Source of the DNA: Ruditapes philippinarum
Lineage: Eukaryota
Direction of reading: 5' to 3'
Length of the DNA stretch: 64,000 bases
Assembly (NCBI RefSeq): GCF_026571515.1
Contig: NW_026857342.1
Coordinates: 186,001 to 250,000 of the forward strand
Shown: one piece after another, positions 6,336 to 64,000 of the stretch
Numbering within the stretch: position 1 is the first letter of the stretch
How the letters are laid out: each line of letters opens with the position of its first letter
The notes under the pieces: generated by a model
Databases searched by the model: none
What the model saw: only the letters and a program-made list of their open reading frames with translations
What the model was told of the DNA's origin: nothing
Made by a program: the position numbers and the translations under genes

Positions 6336-6994
6336 GTAGACATCATAATTGGCAATAAACAATGCATGTTTAGTATAATTCATATATGTGGTAGACATCA
6401 TAATTGGCATTAAACAATGCAGGTTTAGAATAATTCATATGTGTGGTTGACATCATAATTGGCATTAAACAATGCATGTTTAGTATAATTCATATATGTG
6501 GTAGACATCATAATTGGCAATAAACAATGCATGTTTAGTATAATTCATATATGTGGTAGACATCATAATTGGCATTAAACAATGCATGTTTAGTATAATT
6601 AATATGTGTGGTTGACATCATAATTGGCAATAAACAATGCATGTTTAGTATAATTCATATGTGTGGTTGACATCATAACTGGCAATAAACAATGCATGTG
6701 TAGTATAATTCATATATGTGGTAAACATCATAATTGGCAATAGACAATGCATGTTTAGTATAATTCATATGTGTGGTTGACATCATAACTGGCAATAAAC
6801 AATGCATGTTTAGTATAATTCATATATGTGGTTGACATCATAATTGGCAATAAACAATGCATGTTTTGTATAATTCATATATGTGTGGTTGACATCATAA
6901 TTGGCAATAAACAATGCATGTTTTGTATAATTCATATGTGTGGTTGATATCATAATTGGCAATTAACAATGCATGTTTTGTGTAATTCATATAT
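6336..6994. repeat. 55-bp minisatellite, ~12 copies, inside the Academ element
   Basis: Unit GTAGACATCATAATTGGCAATAAACAATGCATGTTTAGTATAATTCATATATGTG; starts at 6336, 6391, 6446, 6501 etc. Confidence 0.95.
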
Positions 6995-7929
6995 GATTCA
7001 GACTTTGTTCTTGTTCTTTGTTTTTTATCATTAACCAAAACCAATAATTAATTGAATACTTTGTCATAATGTTGTATGTGCTGGTGTTTTATATGTTTTG
7101 TATCATATAATATATAAATGTAATTCATAGATTGTCTGAAATTGGATCTACATTACATTTAAATGGATTAAAATTGTTAATTTTATTCTAATTTCAATAA
7201 TGTGTGTATGACATTATAATAATGTATGTAAAGTTTGGTATATGAATTTAATAATATGTTCCAATATTTTGCGCAGGTCACATTCAGGACAGAAATTTCA
7301 TATAATTTATGTCAATTGGTATTGCCATTTGAACTATTCGACATTCACATATAAATATGTACATGTTAACATCGTTAAGATATAGGAATGAAAAAAATAA
7401 ATAATTACATTGATAACGATGATGATATTTTATTGTTTATTTGGTCACATTGAATGCAAATGCAAAGTAAAAGGTATATTTTCCATTAATTTGCTGTATC
7501 AACATTTGTATGAAATAGTGGGTGGGGTACATTATTTACCCCGTCAAAAAGTAAACAAATGCTTAAACAGCATGAAAAATGCCCACAGTAGGGCAATCAC
7601 ACATTATATTAGCGAGTTCAAACAAACAGTGAAGAATTAAAACCTTTAACAGTAATACTATAGGCCTATAGGCGTTGTAAAAGGCTTTTTTACATTATTA
7701 TTTCTCTCAAAAATCGGGATTTGGGACCTTAAATCAATGTCATTTTTCAAAAAAATGGTACGTGCGATTTTTTGCGATTTTTTTCACATCATCGTTCAAA
7801 TGTTATAGGTACTTGTTACAGAAGTTTTGTTTCTGTTGCTGATAGTTTAACCCTTTATGGAGTTTTTTCGGAGTTTGATCAGCCTATAAGTCCAGCTTCC
7901 TTAAACGACAGTCTATTACTATTCACGAA

Positions 7930-8422: not shown

Positions 8423-8590
8423 AAGTTCAATTGTTGGAGTTCTTAAAAGAAAAACGTAAACAAGATATTAAAAGATGCATGCTGTACTTCATGAATACAA
8501 AAAGCTGACGCCAGCCATTTCTACAAAACTGTCTTATTGGTATATTTAAATTTTTTTATCCTGATAACACTTTTACAAGAAAACCTTAAA

Positions 8591-8684
8591 ATAGATAAAT
8601 ACAGAATCCCTAAAGAAAGCCCAACACGGCAAAATTGAAAATGTTGCAGGCTCGGTTTGATTGAGCCTGTTCATGGACGGTACT
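8591..8684 (-). mobile_element. Structured short retroelement, family 1, 5'-truncated copy
   Basis: Near-identical to 11195-11288; shares the 3' end ...GGGATTCTGTATTTATCTAT; breaks off within stem 1. Confidence 0.8.
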
Positions 8685-9839
8685 TTAAGTCATTTGAGAA
8701 ACATCATGCAAATAAAGTTCAATTTTACAGTGTAATTCTGCATTTACAGGGAAATCATTTACACTGAAATATCAAGCACCTAGATTTATTGATATATTTA
8801 TGGCGTTCTGTGGCTAATGAATTATACATTTCGGGGCAAATAGATGTAAAGTAGCCTAATTAATTCGGCGTGAACGGTTTGACCCATTTTACAGACTTTT
8901 TTTCTTACTGTCAAACCGTTACGCCTAATTTTAACTGTCATTTTTACGCACGGAAAATCTACCGGCAACACTATCGATAGTTTGGACTGATTTTTACTGC
9001 TTAGAAAGTAACTTCAATGTCCTCTAAAAATCAATAGAATATAAATTCTTGTACTAACTTCTCCTAGAAAAAATATTAGATTGTACCTGTCTTAACGCAT
9101 ACATGCGATTTATTTCAAATTTGTACGGTCTACATTATCTTTGGCGGACATGTTATGACGTCATCGTAAAAAATCGATTCCGTGAAAGCTGGTAGTACCT
9201 GCCACTGTGTCTAGCAGGTAAGTTTGGGTAACGCAGGAAGATTAACTTGCAAAAAAATATAGGGGAAATAAATCTATTCATTTTTTGTAATAAATTTGTT
9301 CATTATTAAATACTAATGAAAAAATACCAATGTGTTTAACATAAAATGCAATGGTAGCAAATAGGCTCCGTACAAGTACTGTTGTTTAATATTTTTTAAA
9401 TGTTTTAATACATGTGCTCAACATTTATCAATAGGTGGTTTGCCTTCTTGTTTACTGCTCATGACTGCCAATGTCACTCTCGCATAAAATACTGACTTCA
9501 TTTATACATTTATATGAAAGAAATATTTATGGGAACTATTTGAATGCACATCAAATTATTCAGTATTTGTACAAATAATATTTCAAGAGTTCTTTTTCAC
9601 CGATTGCCGATAAATAATACCATATTAAACCTACTGATGAAGATTAATGTCTTCTTGACATACTTTATTAATTTACTAAAAAGGAACTTTATTGTGATCC
9701 AGCCATATGCTGTGTAACTATAAGGGAAGGGTCACATATTTTAATAGAAATATATTTTAAATAGAGGATATTAAAAAAAGGTCATTGAGAAGATAAGAAT
9801 TTTCAAATGAACAGATTAAGAGACTTGTACATGTTTAAG

Positions 9840-10243
9840 GTGTATGTCTTGTTGTTTTTACTGTTTTGGTGACACTTTTGTTTGTGTCCCTTGTTTTCTC
9901 GTCTATGGTAAGTGTCTTCCCTTTGCCCCTAGTTTTATTTCTTTATTTCGCCCCCTCCCCCTTCTTTGAATTTCCTATCCCCTTCCCATGTGCTCGTTTA
10001 CTTAGAGGCCCTATTAATCATTCATTTGTTTATTTTCTTTGATTTTGATTTCCTTGTCAGTTACCATTATTTCTTCATATGTATCATTTTAGTAAAAAGC
10101 CTGACCGTGCTCTCCCTTGCGCCCTGTCTTGTTTTTGTTTAGGATCCTCCTGGGCTCCTTGCCAATGGTTCTTGTTCGTGGGTCGTGTTGGGGTTGCGTT
10201 CATTGAATGTCACCTTTCCTTGTTCATCTTGTTTAACATATTT
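9840..10243 (+). mobile_element. PLE-like 3'-terminal fragment
   Basis: 10100-10240 is homologous to the reverse complement of 12960-13081 and shares the CCTTGTT(G/C)ATCTT 3' end with the 10785 element; pyrimidine-rich body. Boundaries approximate. Confidence 0.5.
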
Positions 10244-10600
10244 TATACATGTATACCGCACCGTAAAAAACACATAATGATTATTAATACAAGGTTCGGC
10301 AAGCAAGCAAAGAAATGTAAAGAAAATAGAAAAAACTTATCCAACCATCTCCCCGTCTTAAAACCCCCACAAAAACGCCTAAAACTGCAAAACCGAAACA
10401 TAATTACACATAAGTGCCAAAGACAGCTCTGGTAGGTGCAAGTGCTCCATTGCGCCGGTTTAAACATCACTTAAACATAATAATGTTGAAATTTTGAATC
10501 AACACCCACAGATGTGTACAAAATACGGAGGTAATCATGGAACTTTCAATGTGACACATTCGAGGTGCCGTTCAATGAAAAGCGGGCACTAGATAACATG
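10244..10600 (-). mobile_element. Fragment related to the body of structured-element family 1
   Basis: 10487-10588 aligns with 11363-11458 (GGTAATCATGGAAC.TTCAATGTGACAC...ATGAAAAGCGG) but has a different 3' part. Confidence 0.55.
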
Positions 10601-10784: not shown

Positions 10785-11965
10785 TAACAAGAATAAAGAT
10801 CAACAAGGCAAAGGCAACGTTCACAGGCCGCAGACGCCGCCCCCGGGCACACCCAAGCAGGACATCCAGAAGGCACCAAACAAGTACCTGGAGTGAACAC
10901 AAGGGCGAAAGGAGTGGGACATGTAATGTGAAATAATATAAACAAAAACAGGCCCACAAGGGAATTAAAGGGAAAAGGGCTGTACGGGTGAAAAGGTGGG
11001 GGGGGGGGGTAAAAATGGAAGAGGGGGGAGAGTGAAAATACCTACCGTCAACGACAATCCAACAAGACAGACATCACAAAACATGTAAACATCCAAAAAC
11101 AAGTAACAATACAGACAAGAAAAACACGTGAAGGAACACAAAGGGGTACCGCTTTGGAATGGTCAATGGTAGTTAAACCACTGGGGAGTTTAAAATAGAT
11201 AAATATAGAATCCCTAAAGAAAGCCCAACACGGCAAAATTGAAAATGTTGCAGGCTCGGTTTGATTGAGCCTGTTCATGGACGGTACTGGAAAGTGCAAA
11301 TTACCGTCCACGCCCCCTAGCACCGGCTTAAGCAGAATTCAACATTTAAACGTGAAATAGTAAAATTTTGAATTTAGAAACATCAGCAGATGTGTTCATA
11401 CGGCGGTAATCATGGAACCTTCAATGTGACACTTCCGTGCCATTCCATGAAAAGCGGCGTATGGTCCCCAAGTAATAAAAAGCGTGTGCCCTAAACGAGA
11501 AAACAATGGGCGGAACTAAATAAAATGGAATTTTGAAACCGGTTTTTAGCGCGCCAAACCTCACTCTTAGCCCCAATATGATCCTGAATGACACGAAAAT
11601 GTATATAAAATTAATCCCCGCCAAGTGAAATTCTAACAATGGCCATGGTTACATTAGACGAATTAAATAAAACACATACAAAATTATGTTAATATGTAGA
11701 AAAAGTTACTGCCTAATGACCATTACCAAAGTACTCAATACCTTATAGGAAGGCAGAGCAACAAGAAAATCACCTACAAGGGCCCGACGAAGCAAGGCAG
11801 AAGACGAACATTAAGACAATTCAGTCCCCAAAGGGCTTTAAGAACTGTCCATCATAGAGTCTCCCACTTGGTCCGTCAGATGTAATCAAAAGAGCAAAGC
11901 GTAGCGTCCAACTGTAAAAGGGTTGAACACCAAGCATGCGGAATGCCTTAAAATAACTTGAGAAA
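10785..11965 (-). mobile_element. Penelope-like (Naiad-type) element 3' fragment: ORF C-terminus plus 3' UTR, interrupted by a nested insertion
   Basis: Minus strand 11957-11838, corrected for two small indels, reads VILRHSACLVFNPFTVGRYALLFDYxLTDQVGDSMMDSS*, resembling the C-terminal motif I recall for Naiad PLE ORFs (ACLVxNPxxVxxYAxLFNCTxxxxxxDSM). The UTR carries the GTGAGGTTTGGCGC...AACCGGTTTAAAC...CCAGTGG...TGACCATTCCAAAGCGGTACC module. Confidence 0.65.
11195..11535 (-). mobile_element. Structured short retroelement, family 1 (longest copy), nested in the PLE UTR
   Basis: Removing 11195-11535 plus one AAA restores GTTTAAACCGGTTTTT; AAA is duplicated (11192-94, 11536-38). Full two-hairpin core at 11248-11333. 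Confidence 0.8.
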
Positions 11966-12959
11966 AGGCCAGTCTGAAATTTCATTTTATAGTGTGAAAT
12001 TTTAAGGGTTTTTTTCAAAATTTTTAAGTTATTTTTGGTTGCTTTGAACTTCTTCTCCTACGCAACTGTCCTCAATACTGCTTTTAAGACAATAAACTAG
12101 AAATTGATATGGAGTGTAATACAAATTGAAATTCTTCTTTGCTTCCTCGTGTATAGACTATTTATAATAATTATAATTCATTAAGATATACCTACAATTA
12201 CATTGTATTTTCGTATGTCATGTATGTGGGGAATCAAAGGCAGTTCAGAAATTTCACCTAATGATCACAGATGTTTAAAAACCCAACTGTATAATTTCTA
12301 ATTTGACAATTTTATTTAAACAGACTTAAATGCAGTATGATCTTATGTCGGACATCATAAACTATCTAATTTCTAAGTAAGGTTATCAGAATTTCCTTTT
12401 TACATTTTATTTTTAATGCTGAAATATTCGTGACTGTGTGAATATAAGAGTTATTCCTGCAATAATTCACACCAATAACATAAACAAATTGTATTCGATT
12501 GCCACCGATACCTGTGTTACACCATGAAATGTCACAATTTTACCATGACACCGCTTCCAATATGGCCGCTTTCAATAATTTTCAACGATTTAAAAAAATA
12601 AAGTGGAATATTTAGACTTCTGTTTGACTTTGAAGTATGATAATTTGGAACCTTACATAAAAAACGGTCCTCTTTCAGGTAATGTAGGCTGTTTCTTTAA
12701 AACTTTTCTAGTTTTCGCTCCCAACAACTTCTAATTGGGAACCTTGAAACAATGTATATACAAAATGTTGAGATTTCCTGACTAAGGTACAAAATTATAA
12801 ATAATGTTTCATTAAAGAGTTCAAAATATCATGAGACAGAATTTTTTCTTATGTTTTTTTTTCTTATTTTTATTTTATTTGACACTCGTTATATAATTCC
12901 ATTTGTAATATCTCTATGAAAAATCCTATTAAATGAGAGTTGTCTTGTATGATATAAAA

Positions 12960-13085
12960 TATGATAAACAAGATCAACAAGGAAAGGAGGCATTCAATGA
13001 ACGCAACCCCCACCCGACCCAGCAACAAGAGCCAGCGGCAAGGAGCTTAAGAGGACCTCAAACAAAAACAGGACAGGGCACAATG
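12960..13085 (-). mobile_element. PLE-like 3'-terminal fragment (paralogue of 10100-10240)
   Basis: AAACAAGATCAACAAGGAAAGG..CATTCAATGAACGCAACCCC..AAACAAAAACAGGACAGGGC is the reverse complement of the 10100-10240 segment. Confidence 0.6.
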
Positions 13086-16209: not shown

Positions 16210-16317
16210 TAGAGTGAAATAAGAATCCCTAAAGAAAGCCCAACACGGCAAAACAGAAAATGTTGCAGGCTCGGTTTGATTGAGCCTGTTCATGGACGGT
16301 ATTGTTAAGTGCAAACT
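16210..16317 (-). mobile_element. Structured short retroelement, family 1, 5'-truncated
   Basis: Interrupts the motif GGTGCAAGACACAGAT, which is intact at ~47765 and ~55657; AA duplicated at the junctions. Confidence 0.8.
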
Positions 16318-19300: not shown

Positions 19301-19550
19301 ATCTTACTACATGGTAAGAGTATTTAGTATTGGACAGACAAGACCAGCCAATATAATTTTGAGGAAGTTGAATAACATGGAAAACACTTATTTACGTAAA
19401 GGTCTTAGACTGCGTCCTTCTTTTTTTACTTTTTGCTCTTTTTGTTGTTACATTTCATCGTATTATTTTAGTTTATGTGCTTACATAGACATTTAAAAAC
19501 TGAAATAACCTCAGCTTTGTTATTCTTATTAACAAACTAAAGCTGGTTTT

Positions 19551-19712
19551 AGTACCGCTCAAGCCGGTGCTAGGGGGCGTGAGGGATGTTGCGCATATTC
19601 ATTATCCCTCATGTACAGACTCAATCAAAGCGAGTCTGCAATTTTCTTGTAATATTGTTGTGATTAATGCTTCCGAGGGATCACTTTCCTTCAGATCTTT
19701 GCATTTTGTATT
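19551..19712 (+). mobile_element. Structured short retroelement, family 2, 5'-truncated
   Basis: Reverse complement of ~21310-21453; absent from the paralogous positions near 29975, 49920 and 60345. Confidence 0.8.
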
Positions 19713-21302
19713 GAAAAATCCTTAATAACCTAATTACAGTCCAATATTCAATATAACATTTATGATATTTAATTATCACGACACTGATTTGAAAGTCATA
19801 TAAAAAAAACCTCATATTTGAAGACGTATAAGTGTCTAACAATTATATTACTTTAATGGGTTCAAAAGTTTCAAATCAATGCAATAATTATAAATGTTCA
19901 ATGTTTTTCATTTGGCGCCAGTAAAGCAATTACACCTGCAACAACTCATTTTAAGATATCATTAGCTGAGATTTTTCGCATTCAAGAAAGAAAAACATGA
20001 TTGAAGGCTTGATGTTTACATTTGTGTTGATTCCCTCTTTTTTGGCCATTAATGAAATACAATAAAATTATATCAAATTATAGGCAAATGAGTTCATCTC
20101 AATATTTCCTTAAAGATTTGAGAAAACTTCTAAAGACTGTTTTTAGTTGTTATTTATTCTTCTTAAATAATAGTTTTAATGTGCAGGTATTTTAACAAAC
20201 ACTTTCCGTTTTTATTGCCTATTTATATTAGAAATAATAGACAGAATCACCTCAGTAGCTTACGAACAAAATGATCTAAGAACCAAACATATTTAATGTT
20301 TCATAAATGTGTCAATTCACCCACTTTTCATAACTAAAAGTAACCTTTTTGAATTAATATTTGAGGACAGTTAATATGAGTTGTTGATTGTTGTTGTTGA
20401 TGGTGTTGTTGTTTAGATTCTTAGTAAGGTGTTAATTTTGACAACATATATGAATGCAAAACTTGAACAAAAGAAGAAGGCAGCAACTATGTCACGTCCA
20501 GCCTCTTGAGTACTCCTCTGAGTAATTTGACATGGCTGGAAAGAATATCCTTAAAAAAAATTGATACCATTTGATGAAAATCTAGACAAATAACTTATGC
20601 GCTTAATTGTAGATCATAAAAAAAGTTTTTTTTGAAATGTGTATAATTATCTTAAAAACATGCTAAACGTTTAAACGAGTTTATTTTATATGTGACAAAG
20701 TTTTATGTTTTATTAAATGTTGTAGATGTTATTATTTTTTGTTATAAAATTGAACTAGTTTTCTATCATTTTTTCGAATGTGAATCTGATTCAGTAAACT
20801 TTTGTAATATTGATCAAAATGTCAGTTAAAAACGAAGTTCAATTACCATGTATTTGAAATGTAATCTGCTACGATTTGTCGCAAGAAATAAGTATGAATC
20901 AGTTATGATCATTTATAAAGATTTGTCAAAGAAATGAAGACAAATGAAAAACGATTTATCCTACCATTACTTAATTATATCCCAGCGATTTAATTGTGCG
21001 ATTTTATACCATGACACAATCTAAACTGTTCAATGAAATACAGGATATTAAGAGATTATTCCGTTAGAACACGCCGATTAAATAAATAATGGCGACAATT
21101 GATCATGCAATCAATCTATAACAAAACCTTCTTGATAATACATAATGCAATAGTTAATCTCTCGTTCCCAAACAATACATTCTTATGAGACGTTATTCGA
21201 AATTTTAAACGGTAACAGAGTTCGCACTTTCTTAACCTGTGCACAAGTTATATATACTTGTAATATTTTGTCCTTGTATGTACATATTTTTAATCGTAAA
21301 CG

Positions 21303-21656
21303 AAAATTCTGGAAACAAAGTGATCCCTCGGAAGCATTAATCACAACAAAATAATATAAGAATTGCAGACTCGGTTTGATTGAGTCTGTACATGAGGGAT
21401 AATGAATAAGTGCAACATCCCTCACGCCCCCTAGCACCGGCTTGAGCGGTACTCAATTCTCAACACTTTATAGTGCTGGCATCAATGATCCCGAAGAACC
21501 AGAAAATATAACAACACTGAAGTGAAGTACGGGGCAACTTTTTACGGCTGCCACACGGCACTTGACACCTGCTGTTGTGAAGTACAAAATTCTGGAAACA
21601 AAGTGATCCCTCGGAAGCATTAATCACAACAAAATAATATAAGAATTGCAGACTCG
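21303..21656 (-). mobile_element. Structured short retroelement, family 2: 283-nt monomer plus 71-bp terminal direct repeat
   Basis: 21303-21373 is identical to 21586-21656; empty site ATCGTAAACAAAGTCTATGAG in the paralogue at ~33572. Confidence 0.85.
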
Positions 21657-23354: not shown

Positions 23355-23630
23355 TGTTGCAGCTGTAAAACGTTGGCCCGTATTTCACTGAAGTTTTATT
23401 TTTCTGATTTTTCAGGATCATTGATTCCAGCACATTAAGAGTTTGAGATAAAATACTACTTTTGAAAACCCATTTAGACCGTTACTTTTAAATACCCATT
23501 AAGGGGTGAATGAAGGATGTTGCATTTTCCCACCATCCCTCATAAATGATCTGAATCAAACCGGATCTGCAATTTTCATTTAATTTTGTTGGTTTTATTG
23601 CTTACCAGGGACTTCAATTTTCAAGACTGC
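23355..23630 (+). mobile_element. Older, diverged copy of the family-2 monomer (paralogue at ~45636-45890)
   Basis: Shares GCAGC.GTAAAA.GTTG.CCCG, GGATCATTGAT.CCAGCAC and the GATGTTGCA...ATCCCTCAT...AATCAAACCG..TCTGCAATT core. Confidence 0.7.
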
Positions 23631-28011: not shown

Positions 28012-28145
28012 CAGAAATCAAATCCCTGACGAAAGTCCAAACTGCAAAATTGAAATATTGCAGGCTCGGTTTGTTTGAGCTTGTTCTTAAACAGTATTGG
28101 AAAGTGCAATTAACTTCTAACGCCTACTAGCACCCGCTTGATCAA
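28012..28145 (-). mobile_element. Degenerate family-1 copy (paralogue at ~58629-58752)
   Basis: GCAAAATTGAAA..TTGCAGGCTCGGTTTG..GGAAAGTGCAA..ACGCC..CTAGCACC retained; predates the unit duplication. Confidence 0.7.
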
Positions 28146-31100
28146 AATTTATTCTACATTTAAATACGGTTGTGGCAATTTTGGTCGTTCATCCTAGTTA
28201 TGGCGCTTTTTTAGCGCTATCTCTTCCTAGTGCGGGAATTACAACTGACCGTCCAAAAGAGCGATCGGAGTTTATAACATTAGTTTATCTGTGATATATA
28301 AACTAAATACCAAAATCGCAGTGTTATTATCAAAATTGCTTTATGAGAGAGTTTTGCATTTGTGATGAAGCATTTTCTATTCAAAAGAAAAAAAAACACA
28401 AAAAAATGAAGCAAGTACAATATATGTATATTTATGCTTTAAAATGACTACATACATGCAAGTAAATCTAGCTTGAAATAGTTTAATTAATAGCAAACAC
28501 CAAATAATAATTTATACCGACAATTTTAAGATGAATTTGTCTGCGCGATTATGAACTATTTATATCTAAAATGTGTTTATATCTGTTAAGTCGAGTTTTT
28601 ATTTATTTTATGTATTCTAACATGCAAAAATTGTATCTAATACAAGATACAAAATTAAATAAGCGGTCATAAATGTAATATAACTCAATTATACCTTTGC
28701 TGACCAATCTAACAAATCAAGAGAACAAAATTAGCAGTACCTTAGTTCTATGCAGCCTGCAACCTTTTAGGAACATTATATTATGAGTTATAAATATTTT
28801 TGACAGTTATAAATATTTTTGACATGGTTATATTGCAAACAACCGTTTATATACGGTCATATAACCTGTCAGGAATATTTATAACGAGTTTATAATACAG
28901 CAAACTTCCTTTTCTTGAAAAAAATGTGAGATTTCTTAGAAAATTGACAGCAGCCGTGTATACAAAACTATAAAAACGTCATGATTATCCAATGTAAAGT
29001 GACGTTACACACGTGCAGTATTATAAATGTGAAATATCTTATTTAAAGTTTCTCTTTTGGAAGACATTCAGTAATCTTAGTTATTGCTTTAACAAATTTC
29101 CCATTTGTGGTTATATCTGGTCATGAAATGCGCCGGTACCAATTTTAGAGCATTATTTTCAGCAAGTTTGTTGAATGTATGTCTGTAACGTAGGAAGTTC
29201 GATGAGCTTTTAACACATCAAACAAAGATTAACATATGTTGTTTCATCACAGAAAATTACAGAAAATAAAACATAGATTAAGCGTCCACAGATCAAATGC
29301 ATGACAATGAAACAGGTCTATGTAGATAACAATATTGATTTGCCAGTACCAGAAATAGATACAGTGGTGTGCATATTCGTCTAAGAAATATTCTAGAGAT
29401 AGGTACTTATAAAAATAACCCATTTGTCAGTGCCCTCTTTCGTTTTTGAATCGATTAAACCACTTTACTCACCTTGAACAGAAAATGTGTATACTTAAAT
29501 ACATTTTGTTGTTGCTTTTGTTGTTGTTATTTGAATGAATACACGTTTACTGTTAAACATGATCATTTGCGATTTGTTAGTTACTAAATGGGCAAAATGT
29601 GTTAACGTTTGATGTTGCTAATGAAATATTAATAAGTGTTTAATTTAAAATATGTAATTTTATAGGTATTTATTGATAAATGATGCTTAACTTGCTAACA
29701 AATATGGTACGTGGTTTTTAAAATGTAAATAAAATCAGATCTACACGGTAAAAATATTTCATATTTGACAAGATCAAACAAATGAATATTATATACTTTT
29801 GAGAAATTAAAAACAGCCCCTTATTTTCGGAAATGTTTAAAATTGCGTCCTTCTTTTTAACGATTTGCTCTCTTTTGTTATTAAATTCCATCTTATTTTT
29901 AAATTATTGTGCTTATAAAGACATTTTAAAAACTGAAATTGTCTCACTCTTGCTATTCTTATTAACAAAAAAAGCTAGTTTTATATTTTATATAAACGAT
30001 ATTCCTTAAATCACACAATTACTGTCCAACATTAAGCTATTTATAAAAATTGTTTATCGCAAAATCGTTTTGAAAGTCAGATAACACAAAAACATATTTG
30101 AAGAAGTATAAGTGCCTAACAACTTTATCACTTAAATGGGTTCAAAGGTTTCAAATCAAGGCAATAATTATAAACGTCAATGTTTTTCATTTGGCGCCAG
30201 TAAAGCAATTATACTTGTAACAACTCATTTAAAGATATCATTAGCTAAACCATTTTTGGATTCAAGAAAGAAAAACTTGATTGAACGCTTAATTTATACA
30301 TTTGTGTTGATTCCCTCTTTTTGGCCATTAATGAAATACCATATAACTATATCAAATTATAGGCAAATCAGTTCTTCCCAATATTCCCTAAACGATTTTA
30401 GGAAACTTTTAAAGGCTGTTTTTCACTTTCTTTATTTTCTTTCCTTTAAATGTGTAGCCAGTTTTATTACTTGTCATATAAGATTTCCGTGATTAAGGTG
30501 TATTTGTGTTAGAAATGAGAGACAGTATCGCTTTTGTAGCTTTATTAAAAGAAATAATCTAAAACCAAACAGACTTAAATATTAATTTTATAATAGATGT
30601 GTCAATTTTACCATTTTACATAATTGTAAAGTAGGTAATTTAACGCATTTGTTCAATCATTTGAGAAACAGTTCATTTGAGTTTTTGTTGTTGTTGTTGT
30701 TGATGATGTTTAGATTCTTAGGAGACATACAATTGAATTTAAAATAACGTAAATTATTTTTGCGTGTTTCTGTATTTAATATTATTATTATTGAATTATT
30801 CATAAAGAGAAACTGAAATACAAAGTCATTAATGACTGATAAATGTTTGTTTTAGTCTATAACTATTCCTTTGAAATACACGTGCTTTACAATGAATTTG
30901 GCACTCGACTAATGTTTCAAACGGAATATATCCAATTTTATTATTCATACATCGTTTCCTTATTTGATTGTTAATTTTAACTCATTTTTGTTCATATCTC
31001 GATGATTTGTCAACCTTACAGGCTTTCTCTGTTAACTTACTAGTAATAACCAATTTCTCCGATAAAAACCAACTGTCATATGTCACGACGAAATTTTACC

Positions 31101-32566: not shown

Positions 32567-33661
32567 ATTAACAGCCATTTCACGTTCAGTCTCTTGGTTT
32601 ACCTGCTAAAGGGACTCCTTTTTGACATAATGGTTTACCACTTGATGAAGATCAAGATCAATTACTATTGTGCTTAATTTCAGATTATTTATAAATCTGT
32701 TTTTCAAAAATAGTGTGCAAAATTATCTGAAACATATAAACGTTTTAAAAGAGTTTAACTGAAATCTTGCAAGGAATCATGTTTTCATTCAATTTCGTCC
32801 ATGTTATTTATTTCTGTTAATATACTCGTAAAAATATCGATATTGCTGTTTACCTTCTTGTCAAATGCAAATCAGTAAACTTTTGAGAAAAAAAATCGAC
32901 CTAGTGTAATTGTTTAAAATATCAGTTAAAATCTAAGTTATTATCACGTGTTTAAAAATGTTATCTGCTACAATTTGTCGCAGATAATAGATATTAATCA
33001 ATTATGATCATTTAAAACAATTTGTCAAGGAAATGAAGAAAAATGGAGAACGATTTCTCCTACCATTACTTAATTCTATTCCAGCGATCAAATTGTGCGA
33101 TTTTATACCGTGACACAATCTGAACTGTTAAAAGATGGTTCCATTAGAACACGTCGATTAAATCAATTACGCTGACAATTGATCATGCAATCAATCTATA
33201 ACACGTCCTTCTTAAAAAGAAATAATGCAATATTTAATCTCCCTTTCCAACACAATACAATCTTATAAGACGTTATTCGACATTTTAAGCAATAACGTTA
33301 GTTCGCAGTTTCTTAACCTTTGCACAAGTTATACATACTTGTAATATTTTGTCCTTGTCTTGCATTATTTTAAACGGAATTATTGCTCGTTATACCATAC
33401 TAATAAGTTGTAGTACATTTACAAGCTTAATAAAATAAATTGCTGCTCCATTTTATTTTTTAATAGACCTACAATTTAAGAAACAATTTTGTTGAAAGGA
33501 AAAAACAATAAATATCTAATTGAAATACAATCTATGTAAGGAAGAGTACAAAACTTTTCTAAATGTAAATTATCGTAAACAAAGTCTATGAGTTCTTGAA
33601 TATATGTGTTAAAAACTAAAGACAAACCTATTAGTTTGCTACATTGATAACTTGTGTTGTT

Positions 33662-35843
33662 ATAAGTAGTAATCTTTATTTACATCTCATCATTGTACAG
33701 ACATATACACAATGTTAAAAAAATTACAGCATAAAAGTACAATGCCACTCCAGCATGGAGTTATAAGAGATGAAAAAATATCACAATATTATAATATAAA
33801 TATATATATATATATATATAAATACATAAATCATTAGAACAACACGTTTAAGTAAAATAAAACTCCATACATAGACTAATAAAAGGAAACATCGTGACTA
33901 CCTAAAAGAAGCAATTTAAGATAGTAAGCGTACAACATTAAAACTGAGAAATCGTATAAAAATAACTAAAATAACGATTTTATTTCAGTTAAAAAAACAA
34001 ACAAACAACAAATTAATAAGAATAGCTAAGAAGAATAGCTGTAGTATTTCATACAAATGTGACAGATAGAAATATTTACATGAATAAGAAGCTATTTACA
34101 TAATAAAAACCGGCGTCTTTGTAAAATATTAAAACAGGTTTTGGCACAAATACGAATCATATCTATGTTTGTAAAAAGAAAACGGTATTTGTCATCATCA
34201 GACAGTGTCGAAAAGCTGTTATTTAAGGAACATGCTTTAGCCAACAAATCCCGCCTTATATCATTGTAAAGAGAACAATTCAAGATAACATGTAATTCGT
34301 TTTCTATACTATCAGTATTGCAAAAAGGACAGATCCTGGCTTGCTCTGGTAAGCCTTCATACCTCCCAGTTTCAATCCTTATGGGAGCGACCCCAATACG
34401 GAATTTACAGAAAGCAGATCTATGACTTGGTGGTAATATAAGTTTACAGTATTTTTCTACTTTATACTCAGTTTTAAATTTACTATACACTCGTAACTTA
34501 TTACGTCCACGACCAGAGGGCCCAATAACATTGTTGATTTTGTTATACCAAATACTTATACAATTATTCAATGTTTTCACTTCAACATCATGGGCAAAAG
34601 AACGAGGTATAGTACTGATAAAACTGGTGTACAAATGTAAATCATTGACATCATAATAACTTCTAACATGAAAATACCAGTTTCTACATGAGCGACTAGC
34701 TTTATTATAAGACCAGAGTGCCAAACGTTTATTAATTCTTGCCGAACTCATACATGATAGCTTAGACCAGTATAAAGAAATACATTTCCATTGTCGGACA
34801 ATTGGGGGTTTCCAACCCATATCGCCTGCTACACCATCATTAGGTGAATATTTCCCGACACCAAGAAAGAAACGCATAGCTCTGTTATGAACGGCCTCGA
34901 TACAAGAATATGACCGGAAACCCCATAATGGAGCGCTGTAATTAATAACTGGCCAAACGACGGTGTCGTATAATTTTGTAAAGACATCGTATGGTACACC
35001 ACCAATGACTTTGCATTTAGCAATTAGCAATCCTAAAGCACGACTGGCACTCTGGGCAACAGATTTTACAGTAATATCGTAATCTAAATGTTCATTAAGT
35101 ACTACGCCTAAGTAAGTATATCTATCAACAATACAAATCTGATTCGTTCCGCAAGTAAACATAAATTGGGTACATAATTCAGATTTCGGTCGGAAGTGTA
35201 CAACATTACTTTTATTGGCATTAACATTCATATTATTAAGCGAACACCAGCATTCTAGAGCATTTAATAACACTTGCAGATCCTCTGCTGATTCGGACAG
35301 TATAACAATATCATCGGCGTACAGCATAATACAAACATTCTCGGTTTCAATGTCTATACCTTTACCAAATGATTTAAGATAAATGGACAACTCGTTAATG
35401 AATAAATTAAACAAAAGAGGTGAAAGGATACATCCCTGACGTAGGCCACAATTAACATCAAACCAACCTGTCCTATGATTGTTAACCCTAACACATGACT
35501 TTACCGATACATATAATGATTTTACAGCTCCAAACATTTTACCACTTATGCCTATATCAGATAAGCGCTTCCATAAAATACTTCTATCTATAGTATCGTA
35601 TGCCTTTTTAAAATCTATGAAAGCACAAAAAGTGGATTTACGTAACTTTTTCCTAGTTTCAATTAAATTTGTTAAGCAAAGTACTTGGTCTGTAGTACTC
35701 CGACCTTTTCTAAAACCATTCTGTTCGTCAGAGACCTTATCATTGTTTTCGGACCAAGCATTTAACCTACTATTTAAAATAGAACAATAAATTTTATACA
35801 TAGAAGGGGCTAGGGCAATACCTCTGTAAGACAAGGGGTCTCT
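33662..35843 (-). mobile_element. CR1-group (CR1-Zenon-like) LINE, 5'-truncated
   Basis: Contains the uninterrupted RT ORF; 3' UTR with (TA)n and AATAAA near 33675; absent from the paralogue at ~52305. Confidence 0.92.
34092..35834 (-). CDS. Non-LTR reverse transcriptase plus C-terminal CCHC knuckle (ORF2 lacking the endonuclease)
   Basis: 580-aa ORF with SYRGIAL, QNGFRKGRS, FIDFKKAYD, GLRQGCILSPLLF, LYADD, YTYLGV, CPFC...ENELHVILNC. Not a native start: the element is truncated. Confidence 0.92.
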   Translation of the reverse strand: MSYRGIALAPSMYKIYCSILNSRLNAWSENNDKVSDEQNGFRKGRSTTDQVLCLTNLIETRKKLRKSTFCAFIDFKKAYDTIDRSILWKRLSDIGISGKMFGAVKSLYVSVKSCVRVNNHRTGWFDVNCGLRQGCILSPLLFNLFINELSIYLKSFGKGIDIETENVCIMLYADDIVILSESAEDLQVLLNALECWCSLNNMNVNANKSNVVHFRPKSELCTQFMFTCGTNQICIVDRYTYLGVVLNEHLDYDITVKSVAQSASRALGLLIAKCKVIGGVPYDVFTKLYDTVVWPVINYSAPLWGFRSYSCIEAVHNRAMRFFLGVGKYSPNDGVAGDMGWKPPIVRQWKCISLYWSKLSCMSSARINKRLALWSYNKASRSCRNWYFHVRSYYDVNDLHLYTSFISTIPRSFAHDVEVKTLNNCISIWYNKINNVIGPSGRGRNKLRVYSKFKTEYKVEKYCKLILPPSHRSAFCKFRIGVAPIRIETGRYEGLPEQARICPFCNTDSIENELHVILNCSLYNDIRRDLLAKACSLNNSFSTLSDDDKYRFLFTNIDMIRICAKTCFNILQRRRFLLCK

Positions 35844-38099
35844 GCATATATGTTATATGTTGTCATCGATCTTATCGATCTTCTATTTTCTTTTGTCGGC
35901 TTATAATGAAATATTATTTAGCACTTGTTTTTCAGTGAACGAATTTCATAATTTCATATTTTACTGTTTTAGTAATTCCTTAAAAACGCCAAAAACAGCA
36001 TAAAGTAAAAGCACGCAGCCTCGCTTGGATTACGTGTGCGACTTGAGAAAATCTTTAATGAATTTGATTGCATATAGACAAAAGGTATATTTGCTATTTT
36101 CAATTACTATGTTTTACTGTGTCTTTTTACGTTTAAGGTTGCTTGAATAACCTTTTTTCTTCAAATATTACATCGAGTTGAAAAAAAACATCAAGCGCAC
36201 GAAAGAATGTGTTTTTCGAAAACCCATATAAATTCTTATTATTCTAGTTAATCTTTATATAGTGTCAATATTCAGAATTGCAATCCCGTGTTATAAAAAG
36301 TAATTGACATTCAACCTTTGAGTTATTTATATATGATTTGTAGACTGGGCAGATTTTATGAAAGAGGAGTAAGAAAAAAAATCCAAGACAATCAAATTGT
36401 TAAAATGTCGATCAGCATTAATATAATTAAGTATTCAGTATTTATAAAACAAGGATCAAAGCATTGTTTCTTAGAAGTTACTTCAACACGTTTTACCGTG
36501 ATATAATTAAATAAGCTAACTTAAAGGTAAATTCAATTGATTTGATTCTCCTAAATTTAGAACTATTAATTCTCACATTTTAATTATTACAACTTTAAAC
36601 TTCGTTTTGTGCAAAAAGATAACGATTATATGGGTACATATAACAAGAACATTTAAAATTGTGAATCTTAGATCTCTACTAATTAGTGTAATGTAATTCC
36701 AATGTTTCTGCTTAGACCATTGATAGAATAAGATAATGTTAGGTAATAGATTAAAAGGGTGTTATAAATAAGGGTAAAGTCAAAAATAATGAGGCAAAAA
36801 TTTGAAAATAGGGTCAAAATTGAAAATTTATATTTCATTTTATTTTTCACCTAAAACCATGTGATATTGATTGATGTTTAATGCCGAGTAATTGGATTTT
36901 ATCTAACACAACACAAATTGTATAAATCAACATTTTATTTCAACTTATTAACAAAAATTAACAAAACCAATGCTTTATAAAATTGTGTCACTATACTTCC
37001 CAATGTTAATTAAATCATATGTTTTTGTTATATGTTAGTAACAGTAGTGATGTTAGGATAAGAAATACACCATTTTTTTTTACCAGAAGTTTTACAACAG
37101 AAAAAAATGCTATTGTTGTGTTACAAAAGTCTGATTTTCTTTAATGTAAGTACATCATGTTTTTCTATAGCTGGAGAAAATTGGGCAGAGAAATAAAAAA
37201 GTAGTTGTTAGTATGTATTAATAAATACTTTGATGTAAAATAAAGTTTCCAAATATTTCAACCTTTCAAAAAAAAATAATATGCAGTCAAATTTAACTTT
37301 GATTTTACATAAAAGCGTTACACTCCTGACATGACTAGCATAAGTTGTTTAAATGATAATAGTTCTTTACAGAAACATTGGAGGTAACAATAACATAAGA
37401 AAGACATGTACAGAACAACACTTATGTTTGAAAACATACTGATAGGTTATTAAATTTGAGAATAATTCTTAGAGGAAAGATATGAAGTTGCACTTAAAAC
37501 CGCAAACAAGTTTCTAACAAGTAAACAATTAGAAAATAAATGGAAATAAAGGTTATAAACATTAATTAAGCTTCTGTTCCTAACCATTAGGAAAATATGA
37601 AAATGATTTGTACCATGAAGAATCTATTTCACAAAAAAAATTACAGTAACACTTTAACATTTGAGTGTTACACTCCTGACAAATTCAGGCAAGACACTTA
37701 ATATCTTAAAATATTGATTTAAAAACTTTTACAATGAAATACTTAAGACAAGTATTAAGTTTTCTATGTTAATTGTTCCTTTTTGTTTGTCTTGCCTTTT
37801 TAAAAACACTTTGATAAAACCTTTTATAAATCTTTACTATATATAAATGTTAACCATCTGAGTGTAAAGATATTTTTTTGTATATATGACAATGTTCTAC
37901 TTGCTTTTCTACCCCTGTTTCATTACCATACTGGTTTAAGAGGACATTTACTTAAATAAAAGGATAAAAAGTAAACTACAAATTTAAACTACAAACATTA
38001 ACATGAACTGTCAAAATGTGTTTACACTCCTGACACAAGATGTGCACTTGACACTGTTTATTTTGAAAATATATGATTTCTTGGATTTTAAGTCATTCA

Positions 38100-39721: not shown

Positions 39722-42060
39722 CTAAAGTGTTTTTGGATTTTTTCTGTACTGACTATACAAGCAGTGACCCTGTTGGCCACCAGTACAGACAACACATATA
39801 CAACTCAGGTCATAGCAGGTGAGCACATCTGTACTTGGGTGATGCTGGGAAATCATATGAAAAGAATGTGTTCCTTTCAGAGACTTAAGAGTTTGTTTGA
39901 TCTTTGGTACGGATATCTTGATTTTCTTGTATGGCATGAAGATAATCTTTTGATTGATCTTCTCATTTGGATTTTGAGAAAGAGCAAGATATACTTGGTA
40001 GGCATTGTTTATGACTTTGCCTCCAAGAATGAGACGTTCCAGCTTTCTTTTGATTCCAGCACCAATGCCATCACTTTGACCTTTGCCATGTCCAGACTCC
40101 ATGAAATGGTAGATAACCTTGATGTCAAAAGTTTCTTGAAGAAGTGTGATATGATTAAATGCTTTGCTGCATTTGTATTGCGCTGCACAATTGTCAGTGA
40201 ACCTATGGATAACCTTTAATGGACAAGGACCTGGGTTCTTTGCAAGATGACCTATCAACTGTGTTGTAAATGTATAAACAACATCGGCATTGTGTGCTAA
40301 GTAATCAGATAGAAAAACAATTGACTCTTTCACAATCACTGGATTTTCTATTGTACTTTGTGGGTCATGTCTTTTTCAATTTTGTCCGTGTTGGGCTTTC
40401 TTTAGGGATTCTGTATTTATCTATGTTACTATAAAAACCGATGTAATGTAACTTGTTTTGTAGTCCAGTGAGCTGATTTCTATCTCATCTTGAGGTTGTA
40501 GGAGAAATGTTCTCTGAAAAGTCCATAACAACCAAGCAGTGGTCCAGAGGAAGGTCTGAAAGTAAGTAGGCTTTCCATTTTATAATTGGAAATTTGCTCT
40601 AAATAAATGGCTTGAATGACTTTTCAAGAGATTTAGCAATATCATGTACAAGATCTGCAACACTGCAGGTCTTTTCAGCTTGTATCCAGCGAGTTGTATG
40701 CTTTTTTATCTCCATCTTTAGAAATATTAACGACTCTTTTGAGGACTCCCATTGGTAGTACTTTGCCACAACACTGTTTCAGGCACATGCCTGAACAAGT
40801 GGTTTCATAGGTGTTGGACAACGATAGCAGTTCCACAATCGAACACATTGCCTAATCAACACATGAATTTTAGGGATGTCTTCAATATGGGCACAGAGAA
40901 TAAAGTTTGACAGCTTTTAGGGGTGGCTTTTTAATAATGGCATTGACTGCTGCTGGGCAATCTTATTCAAATTGGCTTCAACTTTTTGTTCAAAATTGAA
41001 ATCTTTTGTGCAAAGTGACATACAGACTCCCTTCTGCATGTCAAGTTCTAACCGTTTGAAATTTCTTAGGAATCATTTTTCTTAAAAGTGCTGAATTCTC
41101 CTTACCCTATAATCTGGAATTGAATAGCTTTTTAAAGCTCCTTGAACAAATTTTCCAATTTTTGTACAGAGCAGATGAACGGCTTTGGAACATGCCTGCC
41201 CATCTATCAAAATTGGTTTGTCCTTTTTGTTTGGCATTTTCTTGAATGTTCGTCAAAAGGAAAGCTTAGGTAGTTTTGGGCATCCATGATTGTTTAAATT
41301 GAGTGGTTTTGACAATCTTTTTGCTTGTTTGTTTTTTCTTCGTTTGTATTCATTTAGTGATTTTTTGCTATTCCAGAGTGAAGTGCTTTTTTTCTGAAAA
41401 AGCCAACTTCTTTTTTGCACCTGCCTGTTCCTTGTTAGGCCTTCCTTGTCTTCTTAATTCAAGAGTTTCTAGCAGATTTTCAGTACCTGGACTAGATGTT
41501 ACTCAAATTAAGCAAGACCTCCTCTTAGGTGTAGCATGTTTTATGATATGGCTCATTGTTTTGGCCCAGTAGTTGGAATCTTCAGGCAAGGACTTTCGAA
41601 CACGTTCAGCTCTTTTGCGTAATGTTGAATGTTGATCAACTTTCTTTTTACAACTGTACCTCACATTTGTGTTTGCTGTTTCAATGTTTAGTGTTTTGCT
41701 TTTACGTTTCCTACTGTCTTTTGTCCACTTTCTTTGCTTTACTTTACACTCTCTGTCAAAATTCTCATCATTTTCTCTCTTCAATTTTTGTTTAGATTTA
41801 TATGCTTTGTTCTCTGTTTTTTTCTTTTCTTTTAATTCAAGTAGCTTTTGTTTATAGACAGGGTCATTTTTAAGTTTTTCACGGTATTTACGAACCCGTT
41901 CTTTTGAAGATTTTGTTGTTTTTTTCTTTGTTTGTTTCTTGTCATCATCTTGTTTTTGTCTTGTTATATTTGTAGAAACATGTGATTTTAGAGCTCTTTC
42001 AATAGCAGGAAGGCTTACTTTTAGTTTTTTCATACTTACTTCAATTGTTTATAAGACTGC
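39722..42060 (-). pseudogene. Sola2-type transposase, frameshifted
   Basis: K/R-rich N-terminus (SSKERVRKYREKLK), VVMDFSEN at ~40520, IVFLSD..H..V, FTDNCAAQYKC, ESGHGKGQSDGIGAGIKR, Cys-rich SCICVVC; interrupted by a 52-bp retroposon. Confidence 0.85.
40373..40424 (+). mobile_element. 52-bp 3' end of structured family 1, inserted in the transposase coding region
   Basis: TTTTCAATTTTGTCCGTGTTGGGCTTTCTTTAGGGATTCTGTATTTATCTAT matches the reverse complement of 8591-8641. Confidence 0.85.
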
Positions 42061-62400: not shown

Positions 62401-62604
62401 TCGGGCAAATTAATTACAAAAATATCAACATGATATTTTGAACTCAAACTACGCTAAAATAACACTTTTAAAACCCCAGTATAAATTTTTGTATTGAATT
62501 CTATATAGTTTGGGTTTGAAACGTAAATAGATCTATTATATATGTTGAACACATTTAGAAGCCGACCGAATCACCAAGAAGTGTTAAAACAAATTTTGTG
62601 ACCG

Positions 62605-62670
62605 TCTTTGAACAGGCTCAAATAAACCGAGCCTACAACACTTTCAGTTTTGTCGTGTTGTGTGTTCTTT
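62605..62670 (+). mobile_element. Degenerate family-1 copy
   Basis: TGAACAGGCTCAAATAAACCGAGCCTACAACACTTTCAGTTTTGTCGTGTTG. Confidence 0.7.
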
Positions 62671-64000
62671 ATCCGTGTTTACGGTCATTTCGTGAATAGT
62701 TTACCCATACAAACTTATGAATGCCAGAACTAAAAATGTAGAAGTTTGAAGACAAACAAGTGCATAATCACATTATGACCTAAATGGATTCAAAAATGTC
62801 TAAATAAGACAATTATTTCAAACATTCATCGTTCGATATTTGACATCGGAATAGCAATCATATTTTAACAGCTCAAAGGAAAAAACATCATTTGCTGCGA
62901 CAAAAGTAAAACGGAGTAATATTTTCTTTAAATAACAGCCACTTTTCACTTGCTGTGACTAGTGCCAAATTATTTTCAAAACTTTCTGTCAATATTTTTA
63001 CTGTTATCAATTCATTTATTTACTCAAAATATTGACAAGCAATCAATATAAATAGTGTTACATGTACATGTACGCAGTGAAACAAGTCTATTAAAAGTAC
63101 GGATTTATTAAGAACTTCAGATAATACTATCGAATAGTACGCTCCTTTTTTCGTCATTTTGCTCTCTTGTCTGATAAATAATACTGTAAAAATAGTCTAA
63201 GAATTGTAGTTTTGTCTTACATCTTTAAATAACGACACTGTACCACATTCAACGGTAGAGAATTTGTCTTATTATAGTGTATGTGCTAAACAGGGTTTTG
63301 CAATTTTTTTTCAATAAAAAACCTAATTCGGTTTACGTATATCACAGTTAGCAGGTTTGATTTGCTAAGCTTTTATTTCTACGTAAGTTAATACGAGTAA
63401 AACTGACAGCTTAATTTGGAAACAAACTATTCTTTACAGGGACTGTGAATAATTGATACAGTTAACGAACACACTAAGGTGATTTAAATGAAATTGTCAC
63501 TAAAAATGTGTTTTAATTAGGAAGCTTTGCTTAGGGTGTAGGCGTCAAAAGAATTAGTATATGTTTCGAATTCTTTGTGTTCTGTTCTACGATTTATCCA
63601 AATACTTGCACTTCTTTATTGTGTTTGCTGTAATAAATAAACAATAAATTTACTGTTTTGACTGTTGATCCAGATATCAAAATTCTGCACATCCAACAGT
63701 CCATTAAAACATCGTTAGTTAATGTAAGCCTTGTAAATATTGCAAAATACGCTTATGTAAAAATTAAAATTATATCTTACAACATTTTTAATCAATAACA
63801 GATTTAGGTTACCAAAAATAATATTTTCATTAAGCAAACTACTTACGATCAAACGTTTTCACTAACTGAACGTATGTAAGTAATTACATATAAATTCAAA
63901 TAGAATTCCTTGCCATAACCGTCGCATTACACGTAGTGATTAGAATATGAAGTTGTTTTATTTTGTCTGATATTTAAAAGGGTTTAAATCTTAATTAAAA

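What the first reader, a model, noticed from the sequence alone, without database searches (positions are those of the whole stretch)
21303..21656. 283-nt monomer with a perfect 71-bp terminal redundancy: retrozyme-like architecture without a hammerhead
Seen: the insertion is 1.25 monomers (21303-21373 = 21586-21656, period 283) and sits cleanly in a site that is empty in the paralogue (~33572). The monomer folds into a run of hairpins (GGCAGC/GTTGCC, CAGCACT/AGTGTTG, AGTACCG/CGGTGCT, the two core stems, GTGAT/ATCAC) whose G-U pairs favour the minus strand as the RNA. I see no CUGANGA hammerhead core and no Pol III boxes. Established: partial tandems are typical of PLE pseudo-LTRs and of metazoan non-LTR retrozymes, small circular RNAs processed by hammerheads. 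Inference: reverse transcription around a ~283-nt circular or concatemeric RNA processed by a different motif.
Basis: partly seen in the sequence, partly recalled or inferred. Interest (0 to 1): 0.75.

Follow-up and report, generated by a model that had tools for sequence, protein, structure and literature searches.

The report
Naiad-dependent mini-retroelement, published as biv-TRIM
This is one copy of a very abundant 283-base bivalve repeat that matches the published 'biv-TRIM'; it shares its head-to-tail joint and a predicted RNA fold with a Naiad (Penelope-like) jumping gene, so it is likely pasted by that gene's enzyme rather than being a miniature LTR element or a hammerhead circle.

Summary
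The 71-bp repeat is exact, but it is not a designed terminus. It is what remains when copying of a head-to-tail 283-nt unit stops at random after 1.25 rounds. Genome copies run from under 1 to 14 units; 36 of 39 arrays end at one point and 5' ends fall anywhere. The RNA strand is the minus strand. The family matches biv-TRIM (Satovic 2019; primer 19/20, period 283), filed as a mini-LTR element with no known partner. I found a likely partner: an abundant Naiad retrotransposon whose unit starts, right after its own head-to-tail joint, with the same hairpin (83% over 60 nt). A long-range helix clamps the two sides of the joint in this repeat, its 629-nt sister and Naiads from other organisms, with compensatory changes. 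Insertion ends run 2-5 nt into the next unit, so the template spans the joint, as shown in vitro for another Penelope-like element. No hammerhead, intact twister or twister-sister core was found in the repeat. A circular RNA is neither shown nor excluded. This scan noted the family before on other pieces of this genome.

The parts
21303..21656 (-). The whole insertion: 1.25 units of the 283-nt family (family A, matching biv-TRIM), 5'-truncated
21303..21585 (-). One full unit; its 3' end (21303, ...AUUUU) is the fixed end shared by the family
21586..21656 (-). Last 71 nt of the upstream unit (the 'redundancy'); 21585/21586 is the head-to-tail junction
21502..21579 (-). Junction hairpin shared with the 5' end of Naiad units (near-invariant core 21527-21561); inferred protein-binding and start-site signal
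21481..21497 (-). 5' arm of the predicted long-range clamp helix
21324..21341 (-). 3' arm of the predicted clamp helix (second copy at 21607-21624)
21357..21462 (-). Predicted four-way module: closing helix, near-palindromic loop hairpin (21433-21453), stem 1 (21392-21425), stem 2 (21366-21388). Shared with the 629-nt sister family, absent from the Naiads examined; role open
33560..33590 (.). Empty paralogous site
19548..19701 (+). Older 5'-truncated copy of family A (others at 23355-23611 and 45641-45870)
11190..11538 (-). 5'-truncated copy of the 629-nt sister family B (others at 8585-8684, 16217-16314, 28021-28163, 40373-40428, 58640-58694, 62601-62671)
9838..10244 (+). 3' UTR fragment of the Naiad partner (others at 11533-11955 and 12956-13080, minus strand)

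Best explanation
The 283-bp repeat is a non-coding, head-to-tail, 5'-truncated element that shares its junction with a Naiad Penelope-like retrotransposon and is likely mobilised by the Naiad reverse transcriptase and endonuclease. Shown: fixed 3' end, random 5' end, multimers, sequence identity with the Naiad 5' end right after the junction, a covarying fold on the minus strand, and a 2-5 nt family-specific run-on past the junction. Inferred steps: (1) a transcript spans the junction; (2) the Naiad protein binds the conserved hairpin just downstream, while the clamp helix holds the U-rich start site beside it; (3) the endonuclease nicks T-rich DNA, often inside an earlier Naiad-type copy; (4) reverse transcription starts internally at the junction, aided by a few bases of homology, and runs back through one or more units until it stops at random. 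This copy stopped after 354 nt. The template is most likely read-through multimeric RNA from arrays, with clamp-assisted re-entry on the same molecule (about 60%), a covalent circle (about 25%) or jumps between molecules (about 15%). No self-cleavage is needed.
For: 36 of 39 arrays end at unit phase 276-6; 2 others are cut by the locus edge and 1 is interrupted. 5' phases of 101 copies are spread from 3 to 275 with no pile-up. Naiad identity: N-terminal Cys motif plus GIY-YIG-like core, CxC, DKA motif and C-terminal RT, the diagnostics listed in PMC8557442. In 10 of 114 distinct occurrences of the hairpin it lies between a Naiad 3' end and a Naiad body. Unit positions 25-84 are 83% identical to the Naiad start, E 1e-13; local score 70 against a maximum of 31 in 200 shuffles; the sister family is 92% identical over 83 nt. 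Clamp: own-family duplexes are -24 to -31 kcal/mol, cross-family -8 to -18 except between the two Naiad subfamilies; in all 4 units the best partner of the 3' arm lies at +78 to +84. The hairpin occurs in 16 of 80 Naiad loci from other organisms; 19 of 31 pairs show double changes, reached by 0 of 500 shuffles. Run-on: bases after terminal ends match each family's own continuation (Fisher p 5e-4 to 2e-6 at position 2). All three families mostly lack TSDs (6 bp or more in 8/101, 7/120, 16/161; control about 3%). 8 of 36 arrays sit in a Naiad-type copy against 1.6% background cover. Internal initiation on junction-spanning RNA without ribozyme cleavage is shown in vitro for Poseidon (PMC11167929).
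Against: Mobilisation by Naiad is not tested; the evidence is shared cis-sequence and shared insertion behaviour. The four-way module is absent from the Naiad 3' UTRs examined (90 genomic loci; 80 outside loci), so another or extinct partner is possible. Two typical Penelope-like hallmarks were not seen: a 30-40 bp tail (1 of 119 Naiad ends, itself a chimera) and clean 5' inversions (4 of 36 flagged, all explained by nesting or a duplicated locus). Pfam did not recognise the Naiad RT or EN pieces. The structure counted was predicted from the same alignment. No usable RNA reads were obtained.
Confidence: 0.8

Rival explanations
1. Retrozyme-like circle: the unit is cut by an unknown or dimer-dependent ribozyme (the four-way module), ligated to a 283-nt circle and copied by rolling-circle reverse transcription, with Naiad or another Penelope-like enzyme.
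For: Precise junctions (77 of 78); no 5' pile-up; units of one array share variants far more than chance (55% uniform against 6% permuted; 10 private variants in all units); compact fold; covarying module of unknown role. Size fits animal retrozymes (PMC7229834).
Against: No hammerhead blocks on the RNA strand, only a chance twister parse, no Rfam ribozyme hit. The twister-sister-like dimer reading has U at G5, a change that abolishes cleavage (PMC5660989). 9 of 20 cases mix haplotypes within an array and 11 old divergent units sit inside arrays.
Confidence: 0.2
2. TRIM, as published: a miniature LTR retrotransposon with 202-218 bp terminal repeats, a 77-80 bp inner domain and tandems made by recombination.
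For: The published primers and inner motif match the window plus strand (19/20, 14/20 ungapped, 12/14) and the period fits (PMC6934838).
Against: The fixed end lies about 45 nt inside the published terminal repeat and the other end is random. No regular short TSD. The authors found no canonical primer-binding site and no LTR partner. The published polypurine tract and forward primer fall in the Naiad junction hairpin read on the opposite strand.
Confidence: 0.04
3. Rolling-circle DNA element (Helitron or Helentron type) with a fixed origin on the plus strand and ragged termination.
For: One fixed end, one variable end, tandems, mostly no TSD; Helitron features recalled, not looked up.
Against: The fixed end and junction are shared with an RT-coding Naiad; the conserved fold depends on G-U pairs on the minus strand. 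No Helitron partner was searched for.
Confidence: 0.03

Closest known systems
biv-TRIM (Satovic et al. 2019, PMC6934838; read parts 1-2 of 5, passages; supplement text searched without hits, figures not seen)
   Same: Period about 283, primer and inner-motif matches, mostly fragments, long tandem arrays, bivalve host.
   Different: Here the true unit boundary lies inside the published terminal repeat, the RNA strand is the opposite one, and a Naiad partner is identified. Identity was tested with two primers and two motifs only, not with the deposited sequences.
Naiad Penelope-like elements, selenoprotein type (Craig et al. 2021, PMC8557442; read passages, sections 6 and 15, supplement searched)
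   Same: Partial tandems, 5' truncation, shared junction sequence and fold, few TSDs, no canonical hammerhead.
   Different: No ORF, 283 nt instead of about 4.2 kb, extra four-way module, no tail seen. The paper's passages name no non-autonomous Naiad; long sequence runs in its supplement were cut, so that search is incomplete.
Non-autonomous Chlamys elements such as MRC1 (same paper, passage)
   Same: Multicopy head-to-tail insertions, earlier misfiled as non-autonomous LTR elements, dependent on an N-terminal-endonuclease PLE.
   Different: Green alga; similarity reported mainly at 3' ends, whereas here it is centred just downstream of the junction.
Animal non-LTR retrozymes (Cervera and de la Pena 2020, PMC7229834, parts 2-3 of 6; Li et al. 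2026 bioRxiv 10.64898/2026.07.22.740005, abstract and discussion)
   Same: 150-450 bp self-paired tandem units proposed to be non-autonomous Penelope-like derivatives.
   Different: They are defined by a type I hammerhead and shown as circles; neither holds here.
Poseidon of Anolis, internal initiation (Frangieh et al. 2024, PMC11167929; parts 1-2 of 4)
   Same: Reverse transcription starts inside an RNA spanning the pLTR junction, needs sequence downstream of the start, prefers AT-rich DNA and needs no ribozyme cleavage.
   Different: C-terminal endonuclease clade, two start sites giving a tail, no homology to the target; here one start site with 2-5 nt of apparent homology.

Membership tests
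Non-autonomous Penelope-like element (Naiad-dependent) | Fixed 3' end, 5' truncation, partial or multicopy head-to-tail tandems | tested here: met
Non-autonomous Penelope-like element (Naiad-dependent) | Terminal cis-sequence shared with an autonomous PLE of the same genome | tested here: met
Non-autonomous Penelope-like element (Naiad-dependent) | Partner has Naiad diagnostics (N-terminal endonuclease, CxC, DKA, C-terminal RT) | tested here: met
   read by eye; no tree built, Pfam silent
Non-autonomous Penelope-like element (Naiad-dependent) | 30-40 bp tail and inverted 5' copies (frequent, optional) | tested here: not met
   also not seen for the Naiad itself in the case of tails
Non-autonomous Penelope-like element (Naiad-dependent) | Mobilised in trans by the Naiad protein | not testable with these tools
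   needs an in vitro priming assay
biv-TRIM (as a sequence family) | Published primers, inner motif and 279-298 bp period | tested here: met
   deposited sequences not compared
TRIM / non-autonomous LTR retrotransposon | Copies bounded by two whole terminal repeats with a short regular TSD | tested here: not met
TRIM / non-autonomous LTR retrotransposon | tRNA primer-binding site and polypurine tract | tested here: inconclusive
   published tract is exact in sister B, not in A; primer site not found by the authors, not searched by me
Non-LTR retrozyme | Type I hammerhead in each unit | tested here: not met
   no GAAA on the RNA strand also excludes the non-circular block orders of PMC10085705
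Non-LTR retrozyme | Abundant unit-length circular RNA | tested here: inconclusive
   only contigs and a restriction-digest-like raw run
Twister-sister ribozyme | L1 with G5-C6-A7-A8 facing G59-C60-U61-N62-A63 | tested here: not met
   GCUCA is present but the facing strand in the dimer reading has U at position 5; the other GCAA is paired in the closing helix
Twister-sister ribozyme | SL4 loop G29-U30-G31-C32-A33-A34-G35-U36-C37 | tested here: not met
   commonest word GGUGCUAGGG in 210 of 259 copies: A33, U36 and C37 differ
Twister ribozyme | UAA, P2, T1, T2, P4 loop and GA in register (layout recalled) | tested here: not met
   one chance parse each in A and B at unrelated places; look-alike words not kept in B
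tRNA-derived SINE | tRNA head with A and B boxes | tested here: not met

The most novel reading that the evidence does not exclude
A ribozyme-processed or protein-ligated 283-nt circular RNA is the template; the Naiad enzyme starts at a site fixed by a conserved, telomerase-like RNA domain (hairpin plus clamp), and the four-way module is a new class of self-cleaving or dimerising RNA that replaces the hammerhead of retrozymes.
Probability: 0.15. Interest if true: 0.82.

Novelty: new variant of a known kind. Interest (0 to 1): 0.5.

Why it matters
It would move a published, widespread bivalve element from the LTR class to the Penelope-like class and give it the partner its describers could not find. 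It also points to a conserved RNA domain at the Naiad junction that likely sets where reverse transcription starts. How Penelope-like elements build tandems is an open question (PMC8557442 calls for an in vitro system), and a 283-nt natural substrate with compensatory variants makes it directly testable. I found no description of this junction fold or of non-autonomous Naiads in searches; the library lacks most subscription papers and repeat databases.

Tried and rejected
RNA evidence. The only raw-read run (X24, four pooled runs labelled RNA) gave equal strands and loose ends at GATC with GATCGATC joints, so it looks like a restriction-ligation DNA library and is not used. RNA contigs (X2, X1, X9) hold the element, with relatively less depth over the junction hairpin than a DNA-like run, but contig depth cannot rank parts or show circles. 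C-terminal-endonuclease PLEs: 40 regions picked from 149 GIY-YIG matches carry their own hammerhead-type ends and not the module. Other Naiad families: two C-terminal queries and one endonuclease query returned only one family with subfamilies; a published Mytilus Naiad was not available as a query, so a further family is not excluded. Module outside this genome: no exact pattern hit in metagenome contigs and no profile hit in 80 Naiad loci (best E 1.7). Apparent tails were my extraction limit or true tandem junctions (corrected). Apparent 5' inversions were nested insertions. A twister-like word pair in the unit is not conserved in the sister family. An HDV-like reading of the two stems lacks P2/P3 (layout recalled). 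A short pseudoknot between loop 1 and the 3' side is 75% paired, overlaps the closing helix and is not supported. No pile-up of 5' ends marks a cleavage site in A, B or at the Naiad twister-like site. The B row used wrong coordinates and was redone.

Full report
Observation. The 71-bp direct repeat is exact and does not extend. The paralogous site near 33572 is empty; 4 bp can be read at both junctions, which is microhomology at most. The minus strand is the structured one: circular fold -96.7 against -62.6 kcal/mol, z -6.4 against -1.6. Rfam gives nothing relevant on the insert or on an array, and no tRNA or A/B box was found.

The family. A genome search gave 97 matches among 40 scored of 1,069 candidates, most 98-100% identical and many in 283-bp tandems. 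A rough count from 9 ends in 445 kb of loci picked for other reasons gives about 28,000 copies. Of 39 arrays, 36 end at unit phase 276-6 on the minus strand; two are cut by the locus edge and one is interrupted. Lengths run from 1.25 to 14.3 units. In 101 copies with an intact 3' end, 5' ends are spread over the whole unit and 41 are shorter than one unit (this set is biased towards long copies by my queries). The 'terminal redundancy' is therefore a chance 5' truncation. Internal junctions are precise: 77 of 78 have the same length. A 629-bp sister family behaves the same way and shares two blocks with the 283-bp unit.

It matches a published element. In PMC6934838 the repeat is 202-218 bp plus a 77-80 bp inner domain. 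Its primers and inner motif match the window plus strand at 19/20, 14/20 ungapped and 12/14. The authors filed it as a miniature LTR element but found no canonical primer site and no partner. My end mapping contradicts that class: the fixed end lies inside their terminal repeat, the other end is random, and TSDs of 6 bp or more occur in only 8 of 101 copies against about 3% in shuffled pairs.

The partner. A third 3'-anchored repeat found beside these copies is the 3' UTR of an abundant element with an N-terminal Cys motif and GIY-YIG-like core, CxC, DKA and a C-terminal RT. These are the Naiad diagnostics of PMC8557442. Full-length copies sit behind a copy of their own 3' end, and the first 85 nt after that junction are the block shared by both short families: 83% over 60 nt for the 283-bp unit (E 1e-13; score 70, maximum of 200 shuffles 31) and 92% over 83 nt for the sister. 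Of 114 distinct occurrences of the block, 55 lie between 283-bp units, 18 between sister units and 10 between a Naiad end and a Naiad body, in two subfamilies. All three families end in AUUUU, mostly lack TSDs and insert into one another: 8 of 36 arrays against 1.6% background cover.

A conserved junction RNA. In the 283-bp unit, the sister and both Naiad subfamilies, the stretch 16-45 nt before the junction pairs with the stretch just after the hairpin, with different sequences in each family. Own-family duplexes are -24 to -31 kcal/mol; cross-family duplexes are -8 to -18 except between the two Naiads. In each unit, up to 4.2 kb long, the best partner lies at +78 to +84, and 0 of 500 shuffles reach the observed energy. 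The hairpin is found in 16 of 80 Naiad loci from other organisms. On 13 aligned junctions 19 of 31 pairs show double changes, against 11 in shuffles; the structure was predicted from the same alignment, so this count leans towards it. In 8 outside junctions the own duplex beats the mean of the others in 8 cases and is the best in 4. In a unit-length RNA this helix would hold the 3' end next to the 5' hairpin.

Where copying starts. The bases after terminal ends resemble each family's own next unit: at position 2, G against A is 23:14 for the 283-bp family, 22:58 for Naiad and 6:44 for the sister (p 5e-4 and 2e-6); position 4 agrees. The template thus continues past the junction and is not cut there. 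This fits PMC11167929, where a Poseidon protein starts inside junction-spanning RNA, needs sequence downstream and needs no hammerhead cleavage. That the hairpin is the binding site is my inference.

Circle or multimer. Units in one array share segregating variants much more than chance (11 of 20 cases uniform; 6% expected), and 10 private variants occur in all units. But 9 of 20 cases are mixed, and 11 old divergent units, dropped before that count, sit inside arrays (38 arrays). Repeated copying of one template and mixed templates both occur; later gene conversion and sequencing error can contribute. RNA data did not decide it.

Ribozyme search. The RNA strand has no GAAA and no CUGANGA within one mismatch, which excludes all block orders of PMC10085705. 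The four-way module has covarying stems (20 double-change cells, 0 of 500 shuffles; 7 of 20 pairs, 67 of 500) and a near-palindromic loop, perfect in the sister. Earlier notes read it as a dimeric twister-sister. Tested against PMC5660989, the reading has U at G5, which abolishes cleavage there, and three changes in the SL4 loop. I rate the module as a protein-binding or dimerisation element first and a new ribozyme second. It was not found in the Naiads examined.

Against my reading. Trans-mobilisation is untested; tails and clean 5' inversions were not seen; the source of the module is unknown; a further Naiad family is not excluded.

Verdict. A known repeat, likely misclassified: a non-autonomous Naiad-type Penelope-like element (0.8). 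This scan reached similar readings on other pieces of this genome; those notes are not independent support. Interest 0.5.

Noticed in passing
Naiad 3' UTR, about 437 nt before the unit end (L267:1949-2093 and 16 further distinct sequences; window fragment near 11533-11955): A conserved fold with the layout of a type-P5 twister (layout recalled): double changes in P2, both pseudoknots and P4 among 17 parsed of 19 extracted sequences, flanked by a palindrome where P1 should be. Rfam did not call it and cleavage is untested. Earlier notes report the same.
   Followed up: partly
Naiad ORF and 3' UTR (L311:3651-4115, L267:1703-1764): In-frame TGA codons at fixed places, including the first Cys of the endonuclease motif, and a SECIS-like hairpin below Rfam's cut-off just after the stop in 8 of 10 Naiad loci: likely a selenoprotein Naiad as described for clams.
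   Followed up: partly
L307 around the junction: A splice-donor-like word in the upstream pLTR and an acceptor-like stretch about 215 nt after the junction suggest an intron spanning the junction hairpin, as in Penelope and Chlamys-3 (read by eye).
   Followed up: no
L136-L156: Several C-terminal-endonuclease Penelope-like elements carry a second ORF with a C2H2 zinc finger between the main ORF and the hammerhead-like end.
   Followed up: no
run X24: Labelled RNA-seq, but reads break at GATC with GATCGATC joints, as in a restriction-ligation DNA library.
   Followed up: no
window 16000-63000: Several diverged segmental copies spaced about 8-10 kb apart, probably a tandem gene family; the insert lies about 750 bp from an exon-like stretch at 20420-20560 on the minus strand.
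   Followed up: no
window 34092-35852 and 39722-40375 (minus): A 586-aa frame that reads like a LINE reverse transcriptase and a 217-aa transposase-like frame (by eye).
   Followed up: no
window 6339-6995: A 55-bp minisatellite of about 12 copies.
   Followed up: no
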